The position numbers and the translations under genes were made by a program. Positions 2,341 to 35,630 of a stretch of 41,741 bases of DNA are shown piece after piece. The notes beneath the pieces were generated by a model that worked only from the letters and a program-made list of their open reading frames with translations, was not told the DNA's origin and ran no database searches. Source of the DNA: a virus (lineage: Duplodnaviria > Heunggongvirae > Uroviricota > Caudoviricetes); the IMG/VR virus record IMGVR_UViG_3300045988_117301; one strand, given 5' to 3'. Positions within the stretch are counted from its first letter, which is position 1. Each line of letters opens with the position of its first letter.

Positions 2341-4400
2341 TCCACAACCTCCCCAAGCTGCGCATCTGTTAGCTCTTTATGCCAGAGACGAAAATTCCTC
2401 ACATGCCCAAATAAATGGCGTAATCCTGCTGTAGTTTGTCCACCAATGCGAATGGTTGCTGTACTCCGGATATATTCCCATTTGGTTTTAGTTTCGCTGC
2501 TTAACTTACCGTTACTGACTACACATGTGGACCGTTCGGACTTTACCCGCATACCAATAAGCATTTTTTCCAGCCCGGCATTTTCATTTATTCGTCGGTC
2601 TGAACCACCTATATCGCAATACGGAAAACCGTCGTACCCACCTGATGAACCAAACCCCATTACGATCCCCGCTCCGGTTTGATGACCGCCGGTATCAAAA
2701 ACACGCGGCGCTACATTTGGCGTTTTATACCAGTTCTTATGTACCTCACAAAGAACCGTAAAAGGAAGATTATAAAGGTTATTCTTGATTGGGACTGTCA
2801 CCATATCGCTTGCCCGCGTTGCCGGTGTCGTCCCCGTAACAATAAAAGATGATGTGCCTGTACCAGCCTCAATCTGTGGAGTGGTTACATCGAGATAATC
2901 CCCTGATGCAACCATCTGCCCTGTATCCGGAGAATACTGGACAAAACCACCAACCGTATTTTCTGTTGTATCTGCTTTTAATGTAGCCTCAAAAAATATC
3001 CAGCCAGTTGCATCATCCTTAACAGACCTTGCTGTAACACGGCTTGTCTGACCTGTCTTGCTAATTATGCGGGTGGTAAGGTTCAGGTTTGCTGCTCCTA
3101 TTGATGTCCTTACCTCCCCATCATAATGTTCAAATAAAATACGAACGGCGATATTATCAACTTCACTTTTTACCCGACAGGATATAGTTACATGCTTTTC
3201 GTCCCCTGAAGTATCAACCCCTCCGGTACTCGAATACAGTCCGATAATGGTATGCGCTTTACTTGTACCAACAATCGAATCCTGTACGACAAACCGGCCA
3301 TAATTAAACCCGAAACTATCTGTGCCTGTTTCTGTAACGTCCAGTGAAGTTGACTTATTCCACTTCGAAGGGTCTGTACTGTTCTGGAAGAAGTTCGTTC
3401 TTTGTCCCTCAATAAGCAGGCCATCACACTCAAATCGCGGCTCATTAATTTCCGCCGTTTTCAGTTCGCCAGATTTGTTGATATATGTTGCCGTTGATGC
3501 GCGACTGAAATTAACCTGTTTATCACTGGCAACCTGAACCACATTATCACCAATCTTCACTTTTTTATAACCCGGAGAATAGCCCGTAATCATATCCAGC
3601 GAATCATTAAAGGGTATCCACACATCCGGCAGCGGCTGTAAAACATATCTGTACGGCTCTGCTGTCTGGTTTGCGTATTCTCTGGCAGCATCTTCACTTG
3701 CTTTTGCTGCCGTCTGGCTTGCTGCCGATGCTTTCGCCGAGTTCGCCGCCGCTGTTTCGCTCACCTTTGCGTTGGCTTCACTGTCTTTGGCATTCGTCTC
3801 ACTGGTTTTCGCTGCCGTCTGGCTGGATTTTGCGTTTTTTTCGCTGGCCTTTGTGGCTGTCTCGCTATTTTTCGCGCTGGTTTCTGATTTTTTGGCTGCT
3901 GTCGCGGAGTTTGCCGATGCAGTCTGCGAGGCCGCTGCCGCCTGTGCGCTGTTAGCTGCATTCGTTTCTGAGGTTTTCGCCGCATTCTTCGATGAGGCTG
4001 CTGCCGTTTCGGATTTCTTTGCCGCCGCTGCACTCTGTGATGACGCTCCGGCATGACGTGCCACTTCATTCACCATCAGCTCAAAACGGCGCAGTGCCTC
4101 CGGACGAACATCATCCTCCGTCATGGCACCGAGAAAATCATTCAGCGTACCTGGTCTGGAACCTTCATAGACGGTAATGGTCCCGGCATGTGAAGGCGGA
4201 AAACCTTCAACCAGCAGGGCGACGCTGTACTGGCCATACTCAACATCCATGCTGTAACGCCCGGCTTCATCCGGATTTTCAGAGGCCACCGTGTTCACCA
4301 CCACCGTGCTGCTGGTCCGTCTGGCCTTCAGCACAATGGTGCAGTTCTGTACTGGTTTTCCTGTGCCATCTTTAAGCACGCCAGAAATTTTTACTGTCAT
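2337..4400 (-). CDS. Side tail fiber protein
   Basis: 687 aa; N-terminal MTVKISGVLKDGTGKPVQNCTIVLKARR... is the conserved prophage tail fibre N-terminal domain; long Ala/Ser/Thr/Lys-rich repeat tract (AAKTSETNA-type) as in StfR-type fibers; Shine-Dalgarno GGTGGA. Confidence 0.85.
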   Translation of the reverse strand: MTVKISGVLKDGTGKPVQNCTIVLKARRTSSTVVVNTVASENPDEAGRYSMDVEYGQYSVALLVEGFPPSHAGTITVYEGSRPGTLNDFLGAMTEDDVRPEALRRFELMVNEVARHAGASSQSAAAAKKSETAAASSKNAAKTSETNAANSAQAAAASQTASANSATAAKKSETSAKNSETATKASEKNAKSSQTAAKTSETNAKDSEANAKVSETAAANSAKASAASQTAAKASEDAAREYANQTAEPYRYVLQPLPDVWIPFNDSLDMITGYSPGYKKVKIGDNVVQVASDKQVNFSRASTATYINKSGELKTAEINEPRFECDGLLIEGQRTNFFQNSTDPSKWNKSTSLDVTETGTDSFGFNYGRFVVQDSIVGTSKAHTIIGLYSSTGGVDTSGDEKHVTISCRVKSEVDNIAVRILFEHYDGEVRTSIGAANLNLTTRIISKTGQTSRVTARSVKDDATGWIFFEATLKADTTENTVGGFVQYSPDTGQMVASGDYLDVTTPQIEAGTGTSSFIVTGTTPATRASDMVTVPIKNNLYNLPFTVLCEVHKNWYKTPNVAPRVFDTGGHQTGAGIVMGFGSSGGYDGFPYCDIGGSDRRINENAGLEKMLIGMRVKSERSTCVVSNGKLSSETKTKWEYIRSTATIRIGGQTTAGLRHLFGHVRNFRLWHKELTDAQLGEVVE

Positions 4401-5218: not shown

Positions 5219-8200
5219 TCAGCTAATCGTGATGCCTGCAGTGGCTTTCTTCATCACAACAACCAGCAAATCGCTGATACTTGCTGTGGGATACCAGCCA
5301 TTTACCCACCATGCTGATACAGAAAACTCCAGCGTCATGTGGCCGCGACCAGCAGGCATATCAATAACACCACTGTAAACCAGCGTATTATCCATCGCGG
5401 TACGGTTATAAATTTCAGCACCGTTTTTCTTCACTATCAGGCGGCATGACGAATAAGTATCGCTGTTCTCCCGCTCATGTCTGGCACCGCTGAAAGCCAC
5501 CGCCGGAATAACAATCTGCCGGTTAAACGGCTGATCGTCATAAACCCTGACGGTAATGGTTCCTGATGGCCAACGCTCCGGTGCACGGGAGTCACGAGGG
5601 AAAGCCTTACCCACTGTTTTAACGAGATCGCCTTCAATCTGGTTTGCAGACAGTTTCCCTCTGATGACACAGTTCTCGTTAATGGTGACATTATTGAGCG
5701 TGCCGGTATTCGCCGTGATGGCTCCACTGATATCCGCATTGCGGGCTGTCAGCCTGCCATCCGGCGTCAGGGAAAACGTCGGAGGATTGCCGGATGACGT
5801 GATGCTCACCGCAAACAGTCGCTTCAGGAACACGTCGTTCATGAACAGCTGATTCCCCTGCGCCACAAACAGCGGCGTGGTGTTGCCGTTCTCCGGGGTA
5901 ATCATCGCAATGCGATCGGCCTGCAGCAGAATGTTACTCAGGGTCTGACCATCAACATCCTCAATCCCCGCACCAATCCCGGCCACATAGGGAATACCGT
6001 TTTTTGTTTTCTGCACCTTCAGCATATACATGGCATTCAGCTCATTGCGCGTGTCTGACTGAACCCGCTGGATTTGCTGTATGGTCACGGCCTGGTCACC
6101 CAGCTTTTTATCCGTGGTCGAGGTAATTTCACTCCCTTTTTTATCCACGTACTGGCGGACCTGTGCTATCTGTCGGGCGTTTTCTGACTGCCCCTGGCTG
6201 ACAGTCTGTGAGATTTCACTGCTCACCCGGTCCACTTTCTGGCTCACCTGCGCGATGGCCAGTGTCTGGTCCTCATTCTTTTTCGCAACCAGCTGCGTGA
6301 GGCTGTTTTCCGCCTTCCCGATTTTCCGGGTCACTTCTGCGATATCCGTGTCCATCCGCTGACGGATATCTTCTTCCAGTTGCGTGACCTCCGTACGCAG
6401 CGCTGAAGCATCAATGCGCTCTTTCAGTGCCTGGCCCAGAAGCGTCTCATCTATCAGCCCCCGGAAAATTTCCAGATACCCTTCACCATCATTGCTGGGC
6501 TGCCCGCTGGCTTCCACAAAAGCAGATTTTCCCACCAGGTTGACGCTTCGCACGTAAAACCAGAAATCCGTCCCCGGCTTAATCCGGCTCCCCTGGACAG
6601 TCCACTGACTGCCGGTCCCCAGATAACGGGCAGATTTTTCCACCTGTGCTGTGTTCGTGATGCGTTTTTCTGAGAACCAGAATTCAAACTGTACCGTCGG
6701 GTCATACACCGCAAGACGCGGGACCGCCGTTATCTGAAAATACCCCGGCGTCAGCTCAATGGTGGCGGGTTTTGCAGGTGCGTTAATCCGGAACGATACC
6801 GACGCCGGATCGCCCTGCTGTCCCCGGGTATTTACCGCCCGGACCGTCAGCGTGTAACGCCCCAGCGCCAGCTGCCTGAAGCGGTAAGTGGTTTCCGCCG
6901 TCCGGGCCGTGCTGACCAGCCGCTCACTGCCGTCATCCGCTGTTACGGTCAGACGGAGCAGGAAGCTCACGCCCTTCACCACCTTCGGCGTGTCCCAGCG
7001 CGCCAGCACCTGATATTCCCCGCTGTCTGCGGTGACTTCGGCGGTCAGGTGCTGCACCGCTGGCGGCGTGACACCATTCACCGTGCCGCTCTGGTCGCCG
7101 TCAAAGTGCGCTCCGTTATCCACGATGGCCTCTTTTTCCGGTACATGCTGCACGGCGGTGATGGCATACGCACCGTCATCGTTCTCCCGGATACTCACAC
7201 AGCGGAACAGGCGCTGGCGCAGCGTCGGCAGCTTCAGCCCCCACACGCTGTATTCGGCAACGCCGTCAGGAATACGGCTCACTTTCACCTTCACGCCGTC
7301 GGTGACGGACTGGACCTCCACGCTGACCGGATTACCCTGACCGTCAACAAGGCTTATCAGCGTGGTACCGGAGGATGGCAGCGTGATTTCACGGTCGAGC
7401 GTCAGCGTCCGGGTCTGGCTGTTCACCGCCAGCACGCGCCCGCCGGTGCTGATACCGGCATAGTCATCATCACAGATTTCAATGACATCGCCCGGAACAT
7501 GGCGAAGCCCTTCTGCGCCCACGCTGAAATCCACGGTCTGCGTTTCCAGCAGTTCCGTTTTAATCAGCCACAGCCCGGCGCGGTGTGCCTGCCCCCGGCT
7601 GGTACAGCCAAAGGCATCCATCTTCGTGACATTACGACCGTAACGGGCAATGGCCTGCGTATCTTCAACAAGCTCTGTCGCCGTCTCCCAGCCGTTGTTC
7701 GGGTCAATCCAGTTCACCTCAACGGCATTATGGCGGTCCTTCAGGGCGCTGAAGCTGTAGCGGAACGGCGCGCCATCATCCGGCATCACCACATTACTGC
7801 GGTTATAGGTCCACACCTTATCCGACTGTCGGTCCTGCACGAACGTCAGCGTCTGCCCGTTCCATACCGGCATACAGCGCATCGCCGAGCAGAAATCACT
7901 GAGCACATCCCACGCCTTGCGCTGTGTGGTCAGGTACGCATTACAGGTGATGCGCGGCTCCGTGCCGCCAAAGCCGTCCGGCACTGACTGGTCGCAGTAC
8001 TGGCCGATGACATACAGCGCCCATTTGTCCACATCCGCCGCACCAAGACGTTTCCCCATGCCGTAGCGCGGGTGGGTCAGCATATCCCACAGACACCAGG
8101 CCATGTTGTTGCTGTATGCTGGTTTTAACGTTCCGTCCCAGATACCGCTGTATTGCCGCGTCTGCGGGTTATAATTCGACGGCACCTGCAGAATGCGCCC

Positions 8201-15086: not shown

Positions 15087-15110
15087 AAAAAAGCCCCGAA
15101 TAACCGGGGC
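15087..15110 (-). terminator. Stem-loop/terminator between V and G
   Basis: Minus strand GCCCCG-gttatt-CGGGGC followed by a T-run (plus-strand A-run 15087-15092). Confidence 0.45.
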
Positions 15111-16884: not shown

Positions 16885-17160
16885 TTACTCAATAAAGATC
16901 ATTGGTTTACCGTTAAAGCGTTCATGCCGTGTGACCGTCCATTGTTGTCCGTCATAAACAACGCGATCCCCGCGCCGTGGGCGGTATCCCGAAGAAAACA
17001 CCACCAGAGAGACCGCAGGTCCGGACAGAGCATTCAGCTCTGCCAGTGTTTCTCCCGGGATCACAGTCATATCGACATCATTAATCGAGGCTGTCTTTCC
17101 CATCTTTCTGACCGTGATCGCATCCATACGCGCTGCCAGCCGGGAAAAGGGATCAGACAT
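16885..17160 (-). CDS. Head-tail connector FII-like protein
   Basis: 91-aa ORF immediately upstream of Z in the lambda FII position. Confidence 0.65.
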   Translation of the reverse strand: MSDPFSRLAARMDAITVRKMGKTASINDVDMTVIPGETLAELNALSGPAVSLVVFSSGYRPRRGDRVVYDGQQWTVTRHERFNGKPMIFIE

Positions 17161-17476
17161 TGAGTTTTACCGGCACTTCTTCTGCACTGGTTCCGGCATC
17201 TGCCCAGACAACCCCGACCAGCGGATCAGAGCCGCTGTTAGTCAGCTGAACTTTTCCGGACTTCAGATAAACCTTCTTACCCGTTTTCATATCATCCGTT
17301 TTCAGCTTAGGCAGCATAAACACACCTTCGGTCATGCCGTCGCCTGTTTCACCCTGTGGAATATCGGTCAGCGCCACCGCAAAAACATCACCCACCTGCA
17401 CCAGATCTCCGCTGCTGATGGCTGCACTGGCAACAATCGCCACCGTTTTTCCTTCTTCTACAAAATTCTTTGCCAT
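17153..17476 (-). CDS. Phage structural protein (DUF2190-like head-associated protein)
   Basis: Start at ATG 17476 with Shine-Dalgarno GGAG (track start is TTG 17521); follows major capsid gene. Confidence 0.5.
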   Translation of the reverse strand: MAKNFVEEGKTVAIVASAAISSGDLVQVGDVFAVALTDIPQGETGDGMTEGVFMLPKLKTDDMKTGKKVYLKSGKVQLTNSGSDPLVGVVWADAGTSAEEVPVKLNV

Positions 17477-17562
17477 AACTGTCTCCGCACAGCCCCGTTC
17501 AGGGGCTGATTTCAGGTACAAAAAAAGCCCTTACGGGCCATCAGAGTTGTTATCTGCGACGT

Positions 17563-19521
17563 TTACGCCGTACATTTCACCAGACCGCGGTGATCAACTG
17601 GCGCGACACCGGCGTCAATACGCACTTTCGTTGTCACGCCATCCACACTGAAGCCCTCCATCTGATCAATATATGGCGTATCCACACCGTTGAGATAAGC
17701 CACTTCAATCGTATCGGAGCCTTTTGACGCAGCCAGGTAGAAGGTGGTCTGGCTGTTATCATCAAGACGAGGCTCTGCAATAACGGTCGCAAAATCTTTC
17801 ACCGGGTTAATAATACCGGCGTTAATGTCAGCCCCCTTGACACTTGAGGAGCGAATGACCTGGTTAGCAACAGACTCCATCGCCGTCGGTACCAGTACGA
17901 ACGCAGGACGAATATTCAGATGACGCTCCCCCTCTTTCTGAACGCGCATCAACTGGCGGGCTTTATCCAGCGATGCCACGTCCATTGCAGCGCTCTCCAG
18001 TACGTTTGCATGTTTCGCTTTATCGAACAGACTTACATTATCTGTGGAGATTTTCGGGTTAGACGTCAGAATGGCATAAACCAGATCGGCAATAGTGGAT
18101 TTCGCCGCACGGCCCAGTTTCATCGGGACATCGGTCAGCATATTCAGATCATCATTGATAATGGCCTGACGGGTGATACTGAACAGCTCGCCATAGGTCG
18201 CCAGTGCAATAGTGGCCTGTTTATCTCCGGTGGTGACGTATTTATATTCCGCCCCTTCACGCACCTGACGCAGAGCACTGAAGCCCCCCATACCCACACG
18301 ATGGGCAATTTTAAAATCAGACAACTGACCTTTCCGCGTCCACTGTTCATAGGTTTCAGGAGCATCTTCCCAGCCCTGCAGAATGGCTTTGTTCGCAACA
18401 TCCAGCAGAATATTACCGAAGTCAGACGTACTGTGTGTGAACGCCGCACCGACCATCTGCATCGGGTTATAACTGGAAACCCCAATACCCCGTTCAGTCA
18501 GTGACATACGGGCATATTCACGCAGGGTCATCCCGTTGTAGACATTATCACGTTCGGTTTTTTCAAATCCGGCACGCGCCATCAGCGCCTGGCGGATCCC
18601 GTCCCCCACAAAATTACCGTTACCGGCATAAATATGAGCCGGTGTATTTTTATTGGATGGCGTGGACTCGCGCCCCATCTCGTTCAACAGCTTTTCGCGG
18701 GCCTGCTCCAGCGAACATTCAGGATCGGCAAGACACTGAGCCTGCAGCGTCTGATAACGCCCGCCAAACATGGCAAACAGATCATTAATACCGTTTACAC
18801 GCGCTTTTTGCTCTGCCAGTACCTGCGCACGGATACTGTTTTCATCCACCACGGGTGCTGCTGCCTGCACTGGCGTCCGGGAGGCTGCAGGTTCATCATC
18901 CTGTACGCGTGGAGCACTGTTGCGTGGCGGAGTAATCATGTTTCGAATGGATTCCGGCATCTTTTTAAATTCCTCTGTACGTTTTGACTGAATACATGCC
19001 ATTGCCTTAACGGCTGGCGTCACCTGATCAGCAAATCCATGTGCCAGACATTCGGCACCGGACATCCAGGTCTCATCCGCCAGCATGGCAGCAATTTCAT
19101 CGGTGGTTTTCCCGGTTTTCTGTGCATAAGCGGGTAACAGAACCGCCTCAACCTTATCGAGCAGGTCGGCATAGGTGCGCATGTCCTCCGCATCACCGCC
19201 CGTAAAGCCAAATGGTTTATGAATCATCATGAAGGTGTTTTCCGGCATAATGACCGGGTTTCCCACCATCGCAATGACCGACGCCATTGACGCCGCCACA
19301 CCGTCGACATAAACGGTAATGGACGCACCATGTGTTTTCAGCGCATTAAAAATGGCGATGCCTTCAAAGACATCGCCACCCGGTGAATTGATATGGAGAT
19401 TAATGTGGGTGATATCGCCCAGTGCATTCAGATCACTGATAAACTGCTTCGCTGTAACACCCCAGAAACCAATCTCGTCATAAATATAAATATCCGCGTC
19501 ACTCTGGTGACCAGCCTGCAT
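17563..19521 (-). CDS. Prohead protease (ClpP/S14-like) fused to major capsid protein
   Basis: N-terminal region INLHINSPGGDVFEGIAIFNALK...VDGVAASMASVIAMVG (ClpP-like Ser motif) then a large capsid domain; start chosen at ATG 19521 just after the portal stop (19535). Confidence 0.85.
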   Translation of the reverse strand: MQAGHQSDADIYIYDEIGFWGVTAKQFISDLNALGDITHINLHINSPGGDVFEGIAIFNALKTHGASITVYVDGVAASMASVIAMVGNPVIMPENTFMMIHKPFGFTGGDAEDMRTYADLLDKVEAVLLPAYAQKTGKTTDEIAAMLADETWMSGAECLAHGFADQVTPAVKAMACIQSKRTEEFKKMPESIRNMITPPRNSAPRVQDDEPAASRTPVQAAAPVVDENSIRAQVLAEQKARVNGINDLFAMFGGRYQTLQAQCLADPECSLEQAREKLLNEMGRESTPSNKNTPAHIYAGNGNFVGDGIRQALMARAGFEKTERDNVYNGMTLREYARMSLTERGIGVSSYNPMQMVGAAFTHSTSDFGNILLDVANKAILQGWEDAPETYEQWTRKGQLSDFKIAHRVGMGGFSALRQVREGAEYKYVTTGDKQATIALATYGELFSITRQAIINDDLNMLTDVPMKLGRAAKSTIADLVYAILTSNPKISTDNVSLFDKAKHANVLESAAMDVASLDKARQLMRVQKEGERHLNIRPAFVLVPTAMESVANQVIRSSSVKGADINAGIINPVKDFATVIAEPRLDDNSQTTFYLAASKGSDTIEVAYLNGVDTPYIDQMEGFSVDGVTTKVRIDAGVAPVDHRGLVKCTA

Positions 19522-19534
19522 CCTGAACCAGGAA

Positions 19535-21043
19535 TTATTCTTCGGACTGGTCGTCGGTGTGCTGCGGCTCCTGTCGTTTCGTTGCGGCACTGCTGCCTCC
19601 TTTATCACTGGCCGGATCGGTATCAAATACCAGATCCAGCTTGCGGTTTTCATCAATTTCGGCCTTGCGCCGACGTTTGACATCATCCGGATTACGACCA
19701 CCAGCACGTACCCAGTCTGATTCTGTCGCCGCTCCACCACGAATCTGGATTTTCCAGGCCTCAGCCTCCTTAACAGGGTCAATCCACGGCATCACTGGTC
19801 CGGAATACACCGCGGTATACAGTGAAGAACGGTCAAGATCGCGGGGTAGCCTGATAACACCGGATGCCACAGCCTGTTTCAGCCAGGCACGATACATCGG
19901 GCGGGTGACGGCACCAATAAACCAGTCCTGCAGGATCAGGTAGCCATCAGTAGATTCAACCAGCTCCTGACGCTGGGCGCTGTAAGTGCCGTTATAGTTG
20001 CGCGCTGTACTGGAAAAACTCAGACGACTGCCCGCCGCCACGGCACGCAACTGACCATTACGAAAAGTTTCAAGGTTAGGATTGGGGCGATCCGACTTCA
20101 CCATTCCGATTTCTTCGCCGGGTTTCAGATCGTCGTAAATAATGCCTGGCTGAATGGTAAGCTCGCGTTCCTTATCCTTGCTGCCATTACCATCCGGTTC
20201 ATAGCTCTGCCCGTCGCCTTTGCGGATGTACATCCCCAGAGCAGCGGCGATCCTTGCTGCAGTCAGCTCATAATCTTCATAATCTTTCAGGGCACTGAGG
20301 CGGATCAGCACACCGGACAACAAAGACGTCCCGCGTATCTGGTGCAGACGGCGAACAAATTTAAGATGCAGCATTCGCTCTGCATCCACTTCTTTGGTTT
20401 CCATCTGCCGTCCGGATACGGGACGGCTTTTATACACCAGATATTTTTCGGGACGCCCCCAGTCATCAACAAACACGCCCTGATTCAGCCTGTTGCTCTC
20501 ATCACTGGTCATGGGAATAAAGTCTGGCTCGAGCGCCTCCAGCCAGAAATGAACACCGGCAGAAGGCGTCAGGCTGTTTATGCGCCCGGAAACCATCTGG
20601 GCAAACACCTCACCATCGCGCAGCCAGGTACGCAGCATCAGACGTTCCAGCATCGGACGGGTAAACTGCCCGGTGACTTCCGGGCTGACAGACCATTCAC
20701 TCCATCGGGTGCGAATCTCCGCTGCCAGATCACGGGCAATGGCCCCATTGCGTAATACCGGATGTGGCTCGACAATAATCCCGTTTTTCCCCACCACCCG
20801 TTCTTCCAGCTTGTCAAATACACCAATAACCAGATCGTGGTTGTTATCAAGGTAACGGGCCTGCTCACGTAACGACACGGCCCCGTACTGGCTTAGCTGG
20901 TCGGCAGTTCGGTTCTCCCGTCGGGCTTTGTGTGTCCGCGTCGTTTTTACGGCTTCATAAGCCTGGATCACCGCACGGGAACGCAGCCTTGCCGCTTTCC
21001 ATCCAGGTGAAAAAACGCCAATCACATCATCAAGAATTGCCAT
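19535..21043 (-). CDS. Portal protein
   Basis: About 500 aa between W-like and capsid genes; start ATG 21043 overlaps the W stop (TGATG). Confidence 0.9.
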   Translation of the reverse strand: MAILDDVIGVFSPGWKAARLRSRAVIQAYEAVKTTRTHKARRENRTADQLSQYGAVSLREQARYLDNNHDLVIGVFDKLEERVVGKNGIIVEPHPVLRNGAIARDLAAEIRTRWSEWSVSPEVTGQFTRPMLERLMLRTWLRDGEVFAQMVSGRINSLTPSAGVHFWLEALEPDFIPMTSDESNRLNQGVFVDDWGRPEKYLVYKSRPVSGRQMETKEVDAERMLHLKFVRRLHQIRGTSLLSGVLIRLSALKDYEDYELTAARIAAALGMYIRKGDGQSYEPDGNGSKDKERELTIQPGIIYDDLKPGEEIGMVKSDRPNPNLETFRNGQLRAVAAGSRLSFSSTARNYNGTYSAQRQELVESTDGYLILQDWFIGAVTRPMYRAWLKQAVASGVIRLPRDLDRSSLYTAVYSGPVMPWIDPVKEAEAWKIQIRGGAATESDWVRAGGRNPDDVKRRRKAEIDENRKLDLVFDTDPASDKGGSSAATKRQEPQHTDDQSEE

Positions 21044-21261: not shown

Positions 21262-23354
21262 CCTCCGGAAGTCAGCCAGGGGTTAACATCGTCAGTTACT
21301 GTTTTCTTCCGTTTTTGTTTTTTAACAGGCGTGGATACCGGTTCCGGTGAGGATGACGGTTCGGTACTGTCCTGGACACACTCCAGCCAGGTTTCCCGGC
21401 TCGCCCACTCCGGTGCATCCGGCCAGCGGATCTTTTCGTATCCATGCAGAATGACCAGAGCCTCGGCATACACCATCAGGTCAAAAGCTTCGTTGGCACC
21501 GCGACCCGGCTTACTCCATTTCCCGTCACTGCTCCGCTCTTCATACGTCAGTTCGTCGTAAAACCAGCTCCCCAGCCAGTCAGGGAAATGCACATAGCCG
21601 GGACCTGGCGAGTCACGCCATAACGCGTTATTCACCCGGTCTTTCAGTGCATCCGTCTGAAGAAGCCAGAGCAGCACATCACCTGCGGCCTGCGCCCGTC
21701 GGCCCGTTCGTCCGGTGTTATCAGGGAATGTACGGGTGATCAGTTTTGCGCGCCGGATGCTGTCGCCCTTAAACAGGTAAATACGTTTACCAAGGCCATC
21801 ACGACGGCAACGACGCCAGAATTTATAGGCATTATCAGTGACCCCGTCTTCACCGCCGGAGTCCACCGCCATTGCCATCAGTCGCATTTGTTGAGAAGGA
21901 TCGGAGGCCAGCGGCCAGCTTTTATGAAAAACATCCGTCAGCAGGACATCCCAGTCTTCCGGATAGCTGGCCGGATCAATTCGCTGGCTCTCCCCGTCAC
22001 TGTCACCGCGCAATGACTGCGTGATGTTGTAACGATCAATAATCCAGCGTTCGCCACGGCTGCCATAGCCCGTTACCTGAACCACAAAACGGCGATGACG
22101 TCCCGCCTGCACATCCACTGTCGCCACAAGGAAATTAACGCCATCCGGCACACTGCGGGAAGGAACTGGCTCTGCCCGCTGCTCAAGCAGTTCACTTTTT
22201 CGTTGCTCCATGCTGGCGCGGGGAAGATAAGGTAATCCCCAGTCGGTATTGATAACCGTCTTGAGTGTTTCTTCACTTCCGGTTGTCTCGTATTCCTGTT
22301 CTGCAGTAAGCAGTTTGTAAACGAGTTGCGAGAGTGTCTGGTAAGCAGCTGCCGGACCCTCCATCCAGAATGACGCAATACGTGAGCGTCGGGGATCACC
22401 ATAACGACTGCCATCCGCATTGATGGATTCACCATCCCGCAACCAGACCCCACGTCCGTTCAGCTCACGTTTTTGTTCAGGCATAATCCGTCCTGAACAG
22501 GAAGGACACTGAATATAAGCCGCCTCACTTGCCAGCACGGGATCGGCAATATCACGGAAACCAGCAACCACATCGCCGCAGGGCTGAAAATACTCACCAC
22601 AGTGTGGACAGGGCCAGTACCAGCGACGGCGATCACCACGGTTATAGAGCGACAGGATCCCCGTGGTTGGTGGAGCCTCATGCGGTGAAGTCCGTCGCCA
22701 TTTCACATCCTTCACATCCCTGCCGGGGGAACTCTCCACCAGCGTCATACCACTGGACATAAATGTGGTGGTACGTTTTGAGGCAAGAGAGAAAGCATCC
22801 CCCTCGCCATCAATATCTTCCGGAAAACGGTCATAATCCGTCAGCGCGACGCATTTATAATCTGATGAGGACATGATATTGACTGACGGCCAGCCGATTT
22901 TCAGGTAGTTACCAGCAAGGAATGTTCTGTCATAAACGTTGTTGTCATTTTTGTTCGGACTCAGGCGACTGACCACTTCCGGGCTGACGCGAAACGTTCT
23001 GGCGAGTCGTTTTTTGGAGTGTTCGCGGGCTTTTTCCTCCGTCATCTGAATGATCAGCATATCAGCAGGATCGCAAATCACGTTGTAAATCACCCAGCCG
23101 TCAATCAGGCCGATAGTCTTGCCGGTTCGTGCCGGGCCAACAAATATCACTGCGTCGTATTCACGCGAGGCCAGGCAGTTCATCGGCTCAATAACATACG
23201 GTGCCACCAGCGGATCCCACGGGACTGAGTTCCCTGCCCCCATGGGCACCCGCATATACTGAGCAACGGCATCAGCAACCCGCATTCGTCTCGGTGCGCG
23301 AAGGATATAACCTGAATCGGTTCGTGCTGCCTTTGCGGTTTCCTGATTCAGCAT
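21252..23354 (-). CDS. Terminase large subunit (lambda gpA-like)
   Basis: 700 aa; ATPase Walker A (VGPARTGKT), Zn-finger-like CPHCGEYFQPC, C-terminal nuclease region; ATG 23354 overlaps terS stop. Confidence 0.95.
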   Translation of the reverse strand: MLNQETAKAARTDSGYILRAPRRMRVADAVAQYMRVPMGAGNSVPWDPLVAPYVIEPMNCLASREYDAVIFVGPARTGKTIGLIDGWVIYNVICDPADMLIIQMTEEKAREHSKKRLARTFRVSPEVVSRLSPNKNDNNVYDRTFLAGNYLKIGWPSVNIMSSSDYKCVALTDYDRFPEDIDGEGDAFSLASKRTTTFMSSGMTLVESSPGRDVKDVKWRRTSPHEAPPTTGILSLYNRGDRRRWYWPCPHCGEYFQPCGDVVAGFRDIADPVLASEAAYIQCPSCSGRIMPEQKRELNGRGVWLRDGESINADGSRYGDPRRSRIASFWMEGPAAAYQTLSQLVYKLLTAEQEYETTGSEETLKTVINTDWGLPYLPRASMEQRKSELLEQRAEPVPSRSVPDGVNFLVATVDVQAGRHRRFVVQVTGYGSRGERWIIDRYNITQSLRGDSDGESQRIDPASYPEDWDVLLTDVFHKSWPLASDPSQQMRLMAMAVDSGGEDGVTDNAYKFWRRCRRDGLGKRIYLFKGDSIRRAKLITRTFPDNTGRTGRRAQAAGDVLLWLLQTDALKDRVNNALWRDSPGPGYVHFPDWLGSWFYDELTYEERSSDGKWSKPGRGANEAFDLMVYAEALVILHGYEKIRWPDAPEWASRETWLECVQDSTEPSSSPEPVSTPVKKQKRKKTVTDDVNPWLTSGGWL

Positions 23355-23845
23355 TACTCCTCCTGCTGTAATTCCTCCTCATCATCCGCACCTGCTTCGG
23401 TCACCCGCAGGGCTATCTGATCGCGCAGATCATCAATAATGGACTGAACACGGCTCACAGCGGCAGGCTGCAGACCGCAGTCACGTTCCAGAATATCCGG
23501 TAATGTCTCCAGCACCTGCACGACCGCTTTTGCCCAGATGGCAAACTCCCGTCTGACATCACTGGCCGGAATGAGTTGTGCCGTTTCCTGTTCGAACTTA
23601 AGACGCTCACGTTCAGACTGATACCAGGCTTTGCGTTCATGTGGATCCATTTCGCCCTCAGCAACCGGCGGTGGTAACCCCATAAATTCAGTCAGAATAT
23701 CGGTCAACCGGTATAGCTTGAGTTTGTCATGTCCACCAGCGGGACGAATGTTTTTCAGTCTTGCCACGACAGTCTGGCGGTGCAGACCAGATAAAGCCGC
23801 CAGTTGATTAATATTCAGCACCAGGTTTTTCAACTCATGATCCAT
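23354..23845 (-). CDS. Terminase small subunit (Nu1-like, HTH DNA-binding)
   Basis: 163 aa with N-terminal HTH (LNINQLAALSGLHRQTVVARL); Shine-Dalgarno GGAGG; about 185 bp downstream of the cosN-like sequence. Confidence 0.75.
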   Translation of the reverse strand: MDHELKNLVLNINQLAALSGLHRQTVVARLKNIRPAGGHDKLKLYRLTDILTEFMGLPPPVAEGEMDPHERKAWYQSERERLKFEQETAQLIPASDVRREFAIWAKAVVQVLETLPDILERDCGLQPAAVSRVQSIIDDLRDQIALRVTEAGADDEEELQQEE

Positions 23846-23899
23846 ATTTCCTCCGGAGAGCTTTAAACATGCATCGTGCGAACAACTTTAAGAAAACGC

Positions 23900-24040
23900 G
23901 TTCGATGTCGAACAAAAAACACTCAATTCGACATGCAAAAAACAAATAACCATTAATAATCAATAAGATGCAAAGATGATGGTGGCCGATAAAAATGCAA
24001 AAACTAGCCTTTTTCCGCGACGCTCCCGCCCCGTGGCAGG
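23900..24040 (-). other. cos region: cosN-like GC-rich element (about 24015-24035) and cosB with inverted TCGACAT motifs (23901-23935)
   Basis: Minus strand reads GGGGCGGGAGCGTCGCGGAAAAAGG..., resembling lambda left end GGGCGGCGACCTCGCGGGTTTTCG; spacing to terS start about 185 bp as in lambda. Confidence 0.5.
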
Positions 24041-24583
24041 CCACCCCACCGGGAGGACCCGTCAGCCTGACAGCCATGACGAACGTCTGATACAGCGCCT
24101 TGCATGAATGGCATCGGGATAATCCAGAAAGGAATAGCATCGTGCCCACAAGAATCTGTGTGAGTATCCTGTTTCTTCCACCCCCGCACAGGACTGGCGA
24201 GCATGAGGGACAAACCCGCGAACCATAAACGCGGTAAAAACCCGGTGTGCATCGTTTTTGATTATTCCCGCACACTCTCGCAGAAGGAGTTCCCCGTCGG
24301 GCTACGGTCTCTGTTAATACGGGAATACGGCGACGATACAGCGCATGATGTGTCAGGCTTGAATACCTTTATCCGTTAAAAGGGATATCAGTTAAGTTAT
24401 CCCGTGTAGGGTATAAGCCATTGTCGAGACCACTCATTGAATGGCCTCTGCAATAACCGATGTCTTTCCATCAGTCCGCCACCACAAAGAATCTTTTTTG
24501 CCATAAGGCTGGAGGTTCATCTTTCAGTGGCTGCCAGTGTTATTTCCCCACTTACTGGCTTGGGTTGTTTCGCTGTACTGCCG

Positions 24584-25126
24584 TTAATTGGTGAGTCCGG
24601 GGATTACGGTTTGCCCGTGCTGTTCAAGGCGTTCAATTCTCGCCAGTAGCTGAGGCTTCTTAATTTTTCCCCAGCGATTAAGCAGGCGGCCTGACATGCT
24701 GGCAACATCCTTCTCTTTCATGTACTCCAGCATTACGGCATTTCTCTCTTCTTCAAATTGACGATGACCAACCTGAAGCATGGCGTACATCCAGTTGAAT
24801 GCGTTGATGTAAGCAATTTTGATACGCATTGCTTCTTTTTTGGTGTAGGACATAACCAAAAGCATCAACCCATCCTTGCGGAGACGGTAGAATTTTTGCG
24901 GCTTACCATTCTGTAACTCATTGTTTTTATAGCAAAGCTCAAAATTGAGCTTTGTATCAAACTCAGGAGGGCAAGCTTCTATGGTTCGTTCAATGTCACG
25001 AACCACGTTCTTCGGCAGCTTTCCAAATGCTTTTGCCACCATAAAAGAATCTGTAACCGGATCGTTGTTTGCTACAAAAATTAGGTCTCTGAAATCTATA
25101 TCGTTAACAACGGTTGGGTAGTTCAT
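24584..25126 (-). CDS. Rha-family phage regulatory protein (moron between lysis and packaging genes)
   Basis: 180 aa; N-terminal FVANNDPVTDSFMVAKAFGKLPKNVVRDIE matches the Rha domain signature. Confidence 0.75.
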   Translation of the reverse strand: MNYPTVVNDIDFRDLIFVANNDPVTDSFMVAKAFGKLPKNVVRDIERTIEACPPEFDTKLNFELCYKNNELQNGKPQKFYRLRKDGLMLLVMSYTKKEAMRIKIAYINAFNWMYAMLQVGHRQFEEERNAVMLEYMKEKDVASMSGRLLNRWGKIKKPQLLARIERLEQHGQTVIPGLTN

Positions 25127-34482: not shown

Positions 34483-35630
34483 TTGCGCCCCCTTACCTCT
34501 GAAGGGTTCAGCGACAAATTTATGAGGCAGGCCAGTGCCGAAGCATCATTAATATAGTCATACAAGCTAACAGCCAGCGGAGATTCGGCTTTTGCCAACA
34601 TAGGATAAAGCTGCTGCAGCCAGACCTGATGAATTGATGAAATGTAGGAATAGAGAACGCTGGCGTTATGTGCAACGTCGCTCAGTACAGAGGGATTTGA
34701 AAGCTGTTTCTCCATCTGGTTAAAGGCATTGATGTATGCCTCTTTGAACTGGGCAGCACGTTTACCCGTGAACCCCATAGCAAGAAACGCAAAGCCGTCG
34801 CGGGTTATTTGATAGCAAGGTAGTTTGCGGCCTGTGCAATCGGTGTAATCACTCACCGAAAAATTGCGGGCAGTGAATGATGCAGAGCATTCAAGCGTGC
34901 GGATCTTTTTCAGTACATCGTCATGACGTTTGGAGAAGAAGTTGGCAACAGCCAGGGATGAAGTAACAGCCTGACCATCAACGATGGCAATTTCAGGTTG
35001 AGTGAGGGTTGGGATCGTAGCCATGATGGCAGCCTCTTTGGTGATTTTTAATAACTCACCACCAAGGCTTTCCACGACCTTATTGGTGGTGAGACGTACA
35101 GGGGTGGAAATACCGGTCACCAAAGAACCCGGCCCAACCGAAGTTGGCCCTGCACGCCCCACCATAATTTGGGCGTAATGCTGCTCATTACACAAAAAAA
35201 CCGCAAGAGCGCGGTTGTGCGCTTTGGTGAATTCCGGGTTTCCACGCCCGGCACCCGCTTTATAAGGTGCCTGAACAGTGTAACGTCCCGGAATGGCAGA
35301 ATCAATGTGCTGGTGGTCCTTCACACTCAACAAAATCATGCCTGAATTTCCACAAAGGACTAAAGCACTCATGCGGGTAGTCTTTGCGAAGATAGATAAC
35401 GCGCTGTGTTTCTGGCTCCCAACGAATAACATGGACATAAAGCCCTCTTCCGTCACGAAACCAGCGGTTAAGTTCCTGCACAACTCGCCCCCCACAGTCA
35501 GGTAAAGTTCTCTGTGGTTACTTACAGCCAGGTGATTTGGTAATCTGCATTCATACCGTAACAACAGGTGTTCAGCGACACTGACCACCAGCTGTTGCGA
35601 CAAACGGTTATTTGCCGTTAAACTGTTCAT
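34479..35630 (-). CDS. Rha-family regulatory protein with a 200-aa in-frame N-terminal extension of unknown function
   Basis: ATG 35630 overlaps cII-like stop (ATGA); internal ATG 35027 with Shine-Dalgarno AAGAGG precedes the Rha-like part (MATIPTLTQPEIAIVDGQAVTSSLAVANFFSKRHDDVLKKIR...). Confidence 0.6.
   Translation of the reverse strand: MNSLTANNRLSQQLVVSVAEHLLLRYECRLPNHLAVSNHRELYLTVGGELCRNLTAGFVTEEGFMSMLFVGSQKHSALSIFAKTTRMSALVLCGNSGMILLSVKDHQHIDSAIPGRYTVQAPYKAGAGRGNPEFTKAHNRALAVFLCNEQHYAQIMVGRAGPTSVGPGSLVTGISTPVRLTTNKVVESLGGELLKITKEAAIMATIPTLTQPEIAIVDGQAVTSSLAVANFFSKRHDDVLKKIRTLECSASFTARNFSVSDYTDCTGRKLPCYQITRDGFAFLAMGFTGKRAAQFKEAYINAFNQMEKQLSNPSVLSDVAHNASVLYSYISSIHQVWLQQLYPMLAKAESPLAVSLYDYINDASALACLINLSLNPSEVRGRK

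What the first reader, a model, noticed from the sequence alone, without database searches (positions are those of the whole stretch)
17491..19521. Prohead protease fused in-frame to the major capsid protein, followed by stem-loops
A single ORF of about 650 aa combines a ClpP-like serine protease region (catalytic-type motif VDGVAASMAS) with a capsid domain, whereas lambda has separate C, Nu3, D and E genes. The tail module is lambda-like, so the head module appears to be of a different lineage. Two GC-rich hairpins with an adjacent A/T run (17491-17540) follow the capsid stop and may attenuate read-through.
Basis: partly seen in the sequence, partly recalled or inferred. Interest (0 to 1): 0.4.

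Follow-up and report, generated by a model that had tools for sequence, protein, structure and literature searches.

The report
Known protease–capsid fusion gene with terminator
This is an ordinary, already catalogued phage head gene that makes the capsid-maturation protease, a scaffold-like linker and the shell protein as one polypeptide; it sits in about 40% of complete E. coli genomes and is followed by a conserved terminator-like hairpin.

Summary
One uninterrupted minus-strand ORF ending at 17563 encodes a ClpP-like serine protease (Pfam CLP_protease, 4e-36), a helical linker and an HK97-fold capsid domain (Phage_capsid_4, 7e-55). It matches the curated NCBIfam model NF045540, [quoted passage not shown], end to end (985 bits, cut-off 475), and PHROG 133.

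The DNA is 100% identical to Escherichia phage PhiR55_1 and 99% identical to mEp460, cdtI, Tritos and Ayreon. It occurs in 2136 of 5426 complete E. coli genomes, where PGAP gives it exactly this name. Full-length fused relatives extend down to about 36% identity, so the fusion is old and is not a sequencing artefact.

One correction: the true start is most likely GTG 19590 (strong AAGGAGG, 675 aa), not ATG 19521.

Both hairpins exist. The first (17539-17526 plus T7) fits an intrinsic terminator. A terminator-like hairpin follows the stop codon in 39 of 46 distinct relatives, often with unrelated stem sequences, against 9.7% of control windows. The second hairpin (17508-17490) has no T-run and abuts the ribosome-binding site of the decoration gene.

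Verdict: already known, low interest.

The parts
17563..19590 (-). Whole gene for the ClpP-like prohead protease / scaffold-like linker / major capsid protein fusion. The stop codon TAA is at 17565-17563.
   Evidence: ORF list and sequence. NCBIfam NF045540 at 985 bits against a cut-off of 475. PHROG 133 at 1203 bits over the full length. PGAP annotates the identical 675-aa CDS, WP_001360054.1.
19522..19590 (-). Probable true N-terminus: GTG start with AAGGAGG 5 nt upstream, followed by 23 codons that include the conserved S-W-F motif. Positions 19535-19590 overlap the 3' end of the portal gene in another frame.
   Evidence: The GTG and its Shine-Dalgarno sequence are conserved in 1720a-02, mEp213 and Kp4865-4, whereas ATG 19521 has no Shine-Dalgarno sequence. 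The Trp is at least 90% conserved in a column upstream of the ATG-start sequence. 'Met1' of the ATG version is I, L or V in half of 60 relatives.
19012..19497 (-). ClpP-like (S14-type) head-maturation protease domain, aa 9-170 in ATG numbering. Catalytic Ser78 is at 19290-19288 and His101 at 19221-19219. Glu150 occupies the position of the ClpP triad Asp.
   Evidence: Pfam CLP_protease, 4.4e-36. NF045542 Clp_rel_HeadMat at 216 bits against a cut-off of 120. Sequence alignment to solved ClpP structures. Foldseek matches to ClpP with TM 0.72-0.81 normalised to the target and rmsd about 2-3 A. S78 and H101 invariant.
18844..19011 (-). Linker 1 (aa 171-226). It is poorly conserved and predicted disordered, apart from a short F-x-x-x-P motif with invariant P189.
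   Evidence: AlphaFold pLDDT below 50 at aa 172-177 and 196-225. Many gaps and variable length in the alignment.
18667..18843 (-). Three-helix domain (aa 227-285) that looks like a scaffold or delta domain. R241 and F249 are conserved.
   Evidence: AlphaFold helices at 227-250, 253-265 and 271-284. It is shared with the second fusion family, NF045541, whose match covers aa 197-649. The scaffolding role is inferred by analogy with the HK97 delta domain and lambda Nu3.
18616..18666 (-). Linker 2 (aa 286-302), predicted disordered. This is the most likely region for the maturation cleavage.
   Evidence: pLDDT below 50 at aa 286-302, and variable in length and sequence. The cleavage itself is inferred, not shown.
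17566..18615 (-). HK97-fold major capsid protein domain (aa 303-652).
   Evidence: Pfam Phage_capsid_4, 7.4e-55, and a weak Mu-like_gpT match. An AlphaFold model of aa 289-652 has pLDDT 80.5 and pTM 0.77. The 50 listed top Foldseek PDB matches are HK97-fold shell proteins (encapsulins and encapsulin-derived cages, HK97 proheads, phage capsids), with probability 1.0 and E 3.5e-9 to 3.7e-7.
17520..17539 (-). Hairpin 1 plus U-tract: GGCCC-GTAA-GGGCT followed by TTTTTT. It looks like an intrinsic terminator and starts 24 nt after the stop codon.
   Evidence: Terminator scan hit. Folding energy -8.8 kcal/mol. Annotated 'terminator' in Ayreon, mEp460 and mEp213. The stem is invariant in enteric relatives while the loop varies among GTAA, GAAA, GTCA and ATCA. 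Hairpins of unrelated sequence occupy the same position in distant relatives: 39 of 46 against 9.7% of control windows.
17490..17508 (-). Hairpin 2: CAGCCCC-TGAAC-GGGGCTG, with no T-run. It ends 3 nt before the GGAG Shine-Dalgarno sequence of the decoration gene.
   Evidence: Folding energy -13.9 kcal/mol, z = -3.6. It is in the RNAalifold consensus, with 3 pairs changed on both sides. Fels-1 and L232 have stems of different sequence (CCGG.. / ..CCGG) at the same place. It is absent from distant relatives.
17153..17486 (-). Downstream head decoration (cement) gene of the DUF2190 / Phage_cement_2 family. Shine-Dalgarno GGAG at 17486-17483, ATG at 17476, 107 aa.
   Evidence: Pfam PF09956, 9e-21. 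PHROG 122 'head decoration', 1.8e-47.

Best explanation
**What it is.** The region holds one late gene of a lambdoid temperate phage, at 17563-19590 on the minus strand. It encodes a polyprotein made of:
- an N-terminal ClpP-fold serine protease;
- a disordered linker;
- a small helical scaffold-like domain;
- a second disordered linker;
- a C-terminal HK97-fold major capsid protein.

It is an ordinary member of the catalogued family NF045540 / PHROG 133, the head type found in Gifsy-2, Fels-1, cdtI and mEp460.

**Likely mechanism** (inferred from HK97, lambda and Mu; not shown here).
1. The capsid domains assemble around the portal into a procapsid. Their N-terminal extensions point inward, so each subunit brings its own scaffold and protease inside.
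2. The crowded protease domains cut the linkers and digest the internal material.
3. This leaves a mature shell protein of about 350 aa that begins near aa 286-305.
4. DNA packaging expands the shell, and the DUF2190 cement protein encoded next stabilises it.

**The hairpins.**
- Directly after the stop codon there is an intrinsic-terminator-like hairpin with a U-tract. Relatives conserve such a hairpin at this position. It most likely lowers the amount or stability of transcript that continues downstream, relative to the capsid cistron.
- A second hairpin with no U-tract sits just 5' of the ribosome-binding site of the decoration gene. It probably affects the stability or translation of that cistron.
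For: **Family and domains.** Pfam CLP_protease plus Phage_capsid_4. NF045540 at 985 bits against 475, and NF045542 at 216 bits against 120. PHROG 133 over the full length.

**Structure.** AlphaFold gives three folded regions separated by disordered linkers. Foldseek matches the N-terminal part to ClpP and the C-terminal part only to HK97-fold shells.

**Catalytic residues.** Ser78 and His101 are invariant and align to the active site of solved ClpP structures.

**Distribution.**
- 100% identical to phage PhiR55_1 and 99% identical to mEp460, cdtI, Tritos and Ayreon.
- Present in 2136 of 5426 E. coli genomes under exactly this PGAP name.
- Thousands of fused homologues, with full-length relatives down to about 36% identity.

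**Context.** The gene order is terminase, W-like, portal, fusion, cement, FII-like, Z, U, V.

**Hairpins.** Searches show the structures. Searches show their conservation. Lambda has an analogous hairpin 3 nt after the stop of its capsid gene E. In this window another follows the major tail gene V.
Against: - No experiment on this protein turned up in the searchable literature. Cleavage sites, protease activity and the mature N-terminus are therefore inferred.
- The position of the third ClpP triad residue (Asp) holds Glu150. It is Thr or Val in 3 of 32 distant relatives.
- If all of the roughly 415 subunits of a T=7 shell carry about 36 kDa of internal cargo, the procapsid interior would be very crowded. 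This is my own rough estimate, and the true stoichiometry is unknown.
- The phage encodes a Q antiterminator, so hairpin 1 may terminate little during lytic growth.
- The stem of hairpin 1 is short: 4-5 bp, -8.8 kcal/mol.
Confidence: 0.85

Rival explanations
1. The single ORF is an artefact. On this view two adjacent genes, a protease and a capsid protein, were joined by a sequencing or assembly frameshift, or by a recent mutation in this one phage.
For: Unfused ClpP-like head proteases do exist in other phages. Many viral contigs match only aa 1-191 of a relative.
Against: - The same uninterrupted ORF occurs in 2136 complete E. coli genomes and in 16 sequenced phages at 98.5% identity or more.
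- All 120 listed best homologues carry the capsid domain and 119 of them also carry the ClpP domain.
- Most of the best 150 representatives at 36-60% identity align end to end.
- A curated full-length HMM exists for the fusion.
Confidence: 0.01
2. The gene is fused, but a second product lacking the protease (scaffold plus capsid, or capsid alone) is also made from an internal in-frame start. Lambda Nu3 inside C and Mu Z inside I work this way. Protease would then be present on only a minority of subunits.
For: - An in-frame ATG (M188 in ATG numbering) lies exactly at the end of the protease domain. GAGG lies 11 nt upstream of it.
- This Met is kept in the enteric subgroup, including Fels-1 and Gifsy-2.
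- Crowding of the procapsid interior would make a lower protease dose attractive (inference).
Against: - The Met is present in only 3 of 32 diverse relatives.
- The 11-nt spacing of the Shine-Dalgarno-like GAGG is poor.
- The GAGG is explained by the conserved Glu-Glu codons.
- No other internal start with a Shine-Dalgarno sequence lies in aa 170-350.
Confidence: 0.08
3. Hairpin 1 does not attenuate late transcription. It serves mainly as a protective 3' end for the processed capsid mRNA. Alternatively it insulates the silent prophage by stopping polymerase that has not been modified by Q. Either way, Q-modified polymerase reads through it.
For: - The phage has a Q antiterminator upstream of the late genes.
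- Hairpins of the same kind follow the two most abundant structural genes, the capsid gene and the major tail gene V, and also lambda E.
- This pattern fits differential mRNA stability.
- It is established knowledge that lambda Q makes polymerase resistant to terminators.
Against: - The conserved U-tract (7 T, invariant in enteric relatives) is the hallmark of termination rather than of a simple stabilising stem.
- Nothing here measures RNA ends or half-lives, so this reading and attenuation cannot be separated.
Confidence: 0.35
4. The ClpP-like domain is catalytically dead. On this view it serves only as a bulky scaffold or core, and another protease, from the host or the phage, carries out maturation.
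For: The canonical triad Asp is replaced by Glu150, and by Thr or Val in a few relatives. No activity data exist.
Against: - Ser78, His101 and the G48-G49 pair of the S-P-G-G motif (oxyanion-hole role assumed from general knowledge of ClpP) are invariant across relatives of 34-54% identity. That is the pattern expected of an active enzyme.
- No other head protease is encoded between the terminase and tail genes.
Confidence: 0.04

Closest known systems
NCBIfam NF045540 (scaf_prot_MCP1) / PHROG 133. Members include WP_001360054.1 and the head genes of phages mEp460, cdtI, Tritos, Ayreon, Fels-1 and Gifsy-2.
   Same: Same protein. The HMM match covers the full length (985 bits). The DNA is 99-100% identical to several sequenced phages. 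The neighbours are the same: portal upstream, DUF2190 cement and Z/U/V downstream.
   Different: Nothing of substance. Published records disagree on the start codon (652, 659, 671 or 675 aa). Many name the gene only 'protease/scaffold' or 'Nu3' and list no capsid gene at all.
HK97 gp4 protease plus gp5 capsid protein with its N-terminal delta domain
   Same: HK97-fold shell (Foldseek matches to HK97 Prohead I and II). The scaffold function is carried as an N-terminal extension of the capsid protein. A phage protease removes it after assembly (this last step is established knowledge for HK97).
   Different: In HK97 the protease is a separate gene of a different, herpesvirus-assemblin-like fold, and about 100 or fewer copies are packaged. 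Here a ClpP-fold protease is covalently attached to every subunit. HK97 cross-links its shell and has no decoration protein, whereas this phage encodes a cement protein.
Lambda C (protease) / Nu3 (scaffold) / D (decoration) / E (capsid)
   Same: Same place in the genome, between a lambda-family portal and the FII-Z-U-V genes. The order of functions is the same. A terminator-like hairpin also follows the capsid gene.
   Different: Lambda has four separate or nested genes. There is no significant sequence similarity to the fusion protein (best BLASTP E 0.06). Lambda E belongs to a different Pfam capsid family.
Phage Mu gpI (protease, with nested scaffold gpZ) and gpT (capsid)
   Same: The capsid domain has a weak match to Mu-like_gpT (PF10124, 3.7e-8). 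The order protease, scaffold, capsid is the same.
   Different: In Mu the capsid protein is a separate gene and the scaffold is made from an internal start. This statement rests on my own knowledge and was not tested here.
Other protease-capsid fusions: NF045541 (scaf_prot_MCP2), PHROG 4523 'major head and protease protein', and actinobacteriophage EpicDab gp9 'major capsid protease fusion' (PMC9671378)
   Same: The same idea of a protease fused upstream of the capsid domain. NF045541 and PHROG 4523 also share the linker and capsid part, aa 197-649.
   Different: The N-terminal protease domain differs. The window protein scores 400 bits against NF045541, below its cut-off of 525.
Intrinsic terminators placed after major capsid genes, for example T7 T-phi after gene 10 (my own knowledge)
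   Same: A GC-rich stem, a tetraloop and a U-tract directly after the most highly expressed structural gene.
   Different: Termination has not been measured here. The operon is probably transcribed by Q-modified, terminator-resistant polymerase.

Membership tests
NCBIfam NF045540, ClpP-like prohead protease/major capsid protein fusion protein | Whole-protein HMM score above the curated cut-off of 475 bits, with end-to-end coverage | tested here: met
   985.2 bits. Protein aa 9-651 align to model positions 2-651 of 652.
NCBIfam NF045540, ClpP-like prohead protease/major capsid protein fusion protein | N-terminal ClpP-related head-maturation protease domain | tested here: met
   NF045542 at 215.8 bits against a cut-off of 120. 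Pfam CLP_protease, 4.4e-36. Foldseek matches to ClpP with TM up to 0.81.
NCBIfam NF045540, ClpP-like prohead protease/major capsid protein fusion protein | C-terminal major capsid domain in the same uninterrupted reading frame | tested here: met
   PF25209, 7.4e-55, at aa 352-649. There is no stop codon between 19590 and 17566.
MEROPS S14 (ClpP) serine peptidases | Catalytic Ser and His at the ClpP positions | tested here: met
   S78 and H101 align to the Ser and His of solved ClpP structures and are invariant in 32 and in 60 relatives.
MEROPS S14 (ClpP) serine peptidases | Third triad residue Asp (ClpP Asp171) | tested here: not met
   The aligned residue is Glu150. It is invariant in the 60-sequence set but is Thr or Val in 3 of 32 diverse relatives. 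Glu might substitute for Asp functionally; this is unknown.
MEROPS S14 (ClpP) serine peptidases | Heptameric-ring barrel assembly and measured peptidase activity | not testable with these tools
   This needs biochemistry or a structure of the oligomer.
HK97-fold major capsid proteins | HK97 fold (A and P domains, spine helix, E-loop) | tested here: met
   The model of aa 289-652 has pLDDT 80.5. The 50 listed top PDB matches are HK97-fold shell proteins with probability 1.0 and target-normalised TM 0.38-0.59. The viral-model library also returns capsid proteins.
HK97-fold major capsid proteins | Actual presence as the main shell protein of the virion, after removal of the N-terminal part | not testable with these tools
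   No virion proteomics for this phage group turned up in the paper library. No other capsid gene is present in the genome, which supports the role indirectly.
Intrinsic (rho-independent) terminator, applied to hairpin 1 | GC-rich stem-loop followed directly by a U-tract, placed after a stop codon | tested here: met
   Five pairs (4 of them G-C), a 4-nt loop, then a run of T (seven consecutive T in all, the first of which is the closing G-U pair of the stem); the hairpin starts 24 nt after TAA. A hairpin is conserved at this position in 39 of 46 relatives against 9.7% of control windows.
Intrinsic (rho-independent) terminator, applied to hairpin 1 | Measured transcript termination | not testable with these tools
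   This needs Term-seq, Northern blots or reporter assays, with and without Q.
Intrinsic (rho-independent) terminator, applied to hairpin 2 | U-tract after the stem | tested here: not met
   The stem is followed by TGCGGAGACAGTT, and the terminator scan does not report it.

The most novel reading that the evidence does not exclude
Because the protease is covalently tied to every shell subunit, several hundred ClpP-fold domains would sit under hexamers and pentamers of the capsid protein. The fold would then have to work outside its canonical seven-fold ring, as monomers, dimers or six-fold clusters. The single polypeptide would be a self-contained unit that assembles, digests its own interior and matures. 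In addition, the conserved pair of hairpins after the gene could be an RNA element that sets the ratio of capsid to decoration protein even though transcription is antiterminated. None of this has been studied experimentally in the literature I could search.
Probability: 0.25. Interest if true: 0.4.

Novelty: already known. Interest (0 to 1): 0.12.

Why it matters
For genome annotation it matters a little. Many deposited phage records (PhiR55_1, cdtI, mEp460, Ayreon) label this gene only as protease, scaffold or 'Nu3' and list no capsid gene. Readers can therefore wrongly conclude that the capsid gene is missing. The start codon is also called inconsistently between records.

Biologically, the one-polypeptide arrangement of protease, scaffold and shell is a tidy way to get the protease inside the procapsid. 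It could interest people who engineer protein cages. But it is a catalogued and extremely common prophage gene, so finding it here is not a discovery. The conserved terminator-like hairpin after the capsid gene is a modest, testable example of expression tuning within a long late operon.

Tried and rejected
1. **Sequence search of the PDB.** Only ClpP entries match, at aa 31-173. No solved capsid is close in sequence.
2. **Foldseek with the full-length model.** ClpP chains swamped the list. I made a second model of aa 289-652 to see the capsid matches.
3. **First scan of viral contigs.** It returned only copies 100% identical to the query and said nothing about conservation. I repeated it with relatives of 44% and 54% identity.
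4. **Literature.** Seven full-text searches found no experimental study of this fusion family.
   - The CBASS preprint concerns a protease-scaffold fusion of T1-like phages, not a capsid fusion.
   - The Phage_Finder and Sp5 papers were irrelevant.
   - Only an actinobacteriophage 'major capsid protease fusion' was described.
5. **Rfam.** No family matches the intergenic hairpins.
6. **Internal start at M188.** Considered and set aside, because the Met is not conserved.
7. **Covariation in hairpin 1 among enteric relatives.** The four core pairs never vary, so they carry no information. The support comes instead from non-homologous hairpins at the same position in distant relatives.
8. **ATG 19521 as the start.** Rejected in favour of GTG 19590.
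Full report
**1. What is in the sequence**

On the minus strand an ORF runs without interruption to a TAA stop at 17565-17563.

- Pfam places a CLP_protease domain at aa 23-168 (E 4.4e-36).
- Pfam places a Phage_capsid_4 domain at aa 352-649 (E 7.4e-55), with a weak Mu-like_gpT match.
- The quoted motif VDGVAASMAS is present.
- Its first Ser (S78, codon 19290-19288) and H101 (codon 19221-19219) align to the catalytic Ser and His of solved ClpP structures.
- Both residues are invariant in an alignment of 32 relatives that are only 34-54% identical and in a second set of 60.
- The position of the third ClpP triad residue holds Glu150. It is Thr or Val in three distant relatives.

**2. It is a named, very common family**

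- NCBIfam model NF045540, [quoted passage not shown], matches end to end at 985 bits against a cut-off of 475.
- The protease-only model NF045542 scores 216 bits against a cut-off of 120.
- PHROG 133 matches over its whole length, and PHROG 4523 is even called "major head and protease protein".
- The 2.7 kb around the gene is 100% identical to Escherichia phage PhiR55_1. It is 98.5-99.9% identical to phi458, Tritos, mEp460, cdtI, Ayreon and others, and about 78% identical to a group of Stx-converting phages.
- It is found in 2136 of 5426 complete E. coli genomes, where PGAP gives it exactly the NF045540 name.
- Fels-1, Gifsy-2 and mEp213 have the same gene in the same place.
- A search of 1.84 billion cluster representatives found 6757 hits at E of 1e-30 or better. 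Most of the best 150, at 36-60% identity, align over the full length in proteins of 640-740 aa.

The fusion is therefore ancient and widespread. The refuting scenario of two genes joined by an error is excluded. Unfused ClpP-like head proteases also exist, as do other protease-capsid fusions (NF045541; actinobacteriophage EpicDab gp9, PMC9671378).

**3. Domain anatomy**

An AlphaFold model built on 60 homologues (mean pLDDT 78) shows three folded parts separated by disordered stretches:

| Region (aa, ATG numbering) | Prediction |
|---|---|
| 1-170 | folded (protease) |
| 172-177 and 196-225 | disordered |
| 227-284 | three helices |
| 286-302 | disordered |
| 304-652 | folded (capsid domain) |

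- The N-terminal part superposes on ClpP structures, with TM 0.72-0.81 normalised to the target and rmsd about 2-3 A.
- A separate model of aa 289-652 has pLDDT 80.5 and pTM 0.77.
- The 50 listed top PDB matches of that model are all HK97-fold shells: encapsulins and encapsulin-derived cages, HK97 Prohead I and II, and capsids of phages phiXacJX1, FCWL1, Adjutor and GP4. Probability is 1.0, E is 3.5e-9 to 3.7e-7, and sequence identity is 15% or less.
- No close capsid relative has been solved.

**4. Start codon**

The ATG at 19521 has no Shine-Dalgarno sequence. An in-frame GTG at 19590 lies 5 nt after AAGGAGG, and this pairing is conserved in 1720a-02, mEp213 and Kp4865-4.

A motif S-W-(F/Y)-x-(M/I)-x-A is conserved throughout the family, and it lies upstream of the ATG. 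Its Trp occupies a column that is at least 90% conserved and in which the 652-aa version has only a gap. The "Met1" column is Ile, Leu or Val in half of the relatives.

The gene is therefore most likely 17563-19590 and 675 aa, as PGAP calls it. It overlaps the last 56 nt of the portal gene in another frame.

**5. Context and the comparison with lambda**

The gene order is:
- small-terminase candidate, gpA-type large terminase, W-like gene, lambda-family portal;
- the fusion gene;
- DUF2190 / Phage_cement_2 decoration protein and an FII-like protein;
- Z, U, V and the rest of a lambda-type tail.

By BLASTP, Z, U and V are 40-55% identical to their lambda counterparts. Terminase and portal are about 24% identical. 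The fusion protein has no significant match to lambda C, Nu3, D or E. Lambda has these as separate or nested genes.

It holds less well for terminase and portal.

**6. The hairpins**

*Hairpin 1.*
- Sequence GGCCC-GTAA-GGGCT at 17539-17526, then TTTTTT to 17520. It begins 24 nt after the stop codon.
- The terminator scan picks it up. It folds at -8.8 kcal/mol.
- The Ayreon, mEp460 and mEp213 records annotate a terminator here.
- Among enteric relatives whose capsid 3' ends and upstream spacer have diverged, the block GCCC-loop-GGGC-T7-..CTGAAA is invariant. The loop varies among GTAA, GAAA, GTCA and ATCA.

In more distant relatives the sequence is unrelated, but a stem-loop with a T-run sits 7-40 nt after the stop. 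At least ten different stem sequences occur. Across 46 distinct downstream sequences, 39 have such a hit, against 198 of 2033 control windows (9.7%) from the same loci. That is strong evidence that a hairpin at this position is under selection.

Lambda itself has a similar hairpin 3 nt after the stop of gene E. In this window an even stronger one (-13.8 kcal/mol) follows the major tail gene V at 15110-15093.

*Hairpin 2.*
- Sequence CAGCCCC-TGAAC-GGGGCTG at 17508-17490. It folds at -13.9 kcal/mol, z = -3.6.
- It has no T-run and ends 3 nt before the GGAG of the decoration gene.
- It is kept in the enteric group, with some changes on both sides of a pair. In Fels-1 and locus L232 a stem of different sequence replaces it.
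- It is absent from distant relatives.

No Rfam family matches either hairpin.

**7. Mechanism**

*Shown here:* domain composition, conserved catalytic Ser and His, disordered linkers, HK97 fold, gene context and the positional conservation of the hairpin.

*Inferred by analogy* with HK97 (delta domain and gp4), lambda (C and Nu3) and Mu (I, Z and T):
1. The N-terminal protease and helical domain face the inside of the procapsid.
2. The protease cuts the linkers and digests the internal material after assembly.
3. A capsid protein of about 350 aa, starting near aa 286-305, remains.
4. The shell expands on DNA packaging and is stabilised by the DUF2190 protein.

Hairpin 1 probably reduces, or marks the 3' end of, a fraction of transcripts, so that the capsid cistron outweighs the downstream ones. 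The phage encodes Q, so the extent of termination is uncertain. A role as an mRNA stabiliser or as a prophage insulator is a serious alternative.

An internal start at M188 would yield a product without the protease. It was considered, but that Met is not conserved.

**8. Verdict**

However, the feature is a catalogued, ubiquitous prophage gene that automatic pipelines already name correctly. Novelty: already known. Interest: low.

The remaining open points are experimental:
- the cleavage sites;
- how many protease domains a procapsid really holds;
- how a ClpP fold works outside a seven-fold ring;
- what the hairpins do to the RNA.

I found no published experiments on these points in the searchable library.

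Noticed in passing
window 19522-19590 (-): The fusion gene probably starts at GTG 19590, 5 nt after AAGGAGG, and not at ATG 19521. It then overlaps the last 56 nt of the portal gene, whose stop is at 19535-19537. Public records disagree on the length (652, 659, 671 or 675 aa).
   Followed up: yes
window 15093-15110 (-): A strong terminator-like hairpin, GCCCCGG-TTAT-TCGGGGC followed by T6 (-13.8 kcal/mol, z = -3.8), lies 21 nt after the stop of the major tail protein gene V. So both of the most abundant structural genes are followed by such hairpins.
   Followed up: partly
L089 (lambda J02459) 7163-7180: Lambda has a terminator-like hairpin, ATGGCCC-TTCG-GGGCCAT followed by a T-rich tail, 3 nt after the stop of its capsid gene E. 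A hairpin after the capsid gene is therefore not specific to this head type.
   Followed up: partly
window 35082-35270 (-): Rfam finds a C4 antisense RNA (35082-35169, 83.6 bits) and the isrK Hfq-binding sRNA (35194-35270, 67 bits) next to each other in the early or immunity region.
   Followed up: no
fusion gene; L084 (1720a-02), L086 (Fels-1): There is mosaicism inside the fusion gene. In Fels-1 the capsid part is 86% identical to the window protein but the protease part only 63%. In 1720a-02 it is the reverse (73% and 90%). This suggests recombination between the domains.
   Followed up: partly
L083 (VT1-Sakai AP000400) 2626-3935: In the Stx1 prophage VT1-Sakai the homologous fusion gene is split by an IS629 insertion. 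The two halves are annotated as 'scaffolding protein' and 'hypothetical protein'.
   Followed up: no
L239 (PhiR55_1 PV340571) 22772-24730; also the cdtI, mEp460 and Ayreon records: Several GenBank phage records call this gene only 'Nu3', 'protease/scaffold' or 'head maturation protease' and annotate no major capsid protein anywhere in the genome.
   Followed up: partly
protein hits P0006, P0033, P0061, P0080: Some database entries join this protein to terminase, portal or tail-protein domains, giving lengths of 800-1135 aa. These look like chimeric gene calls or rearranged prophage remnants.
   Followed up: no
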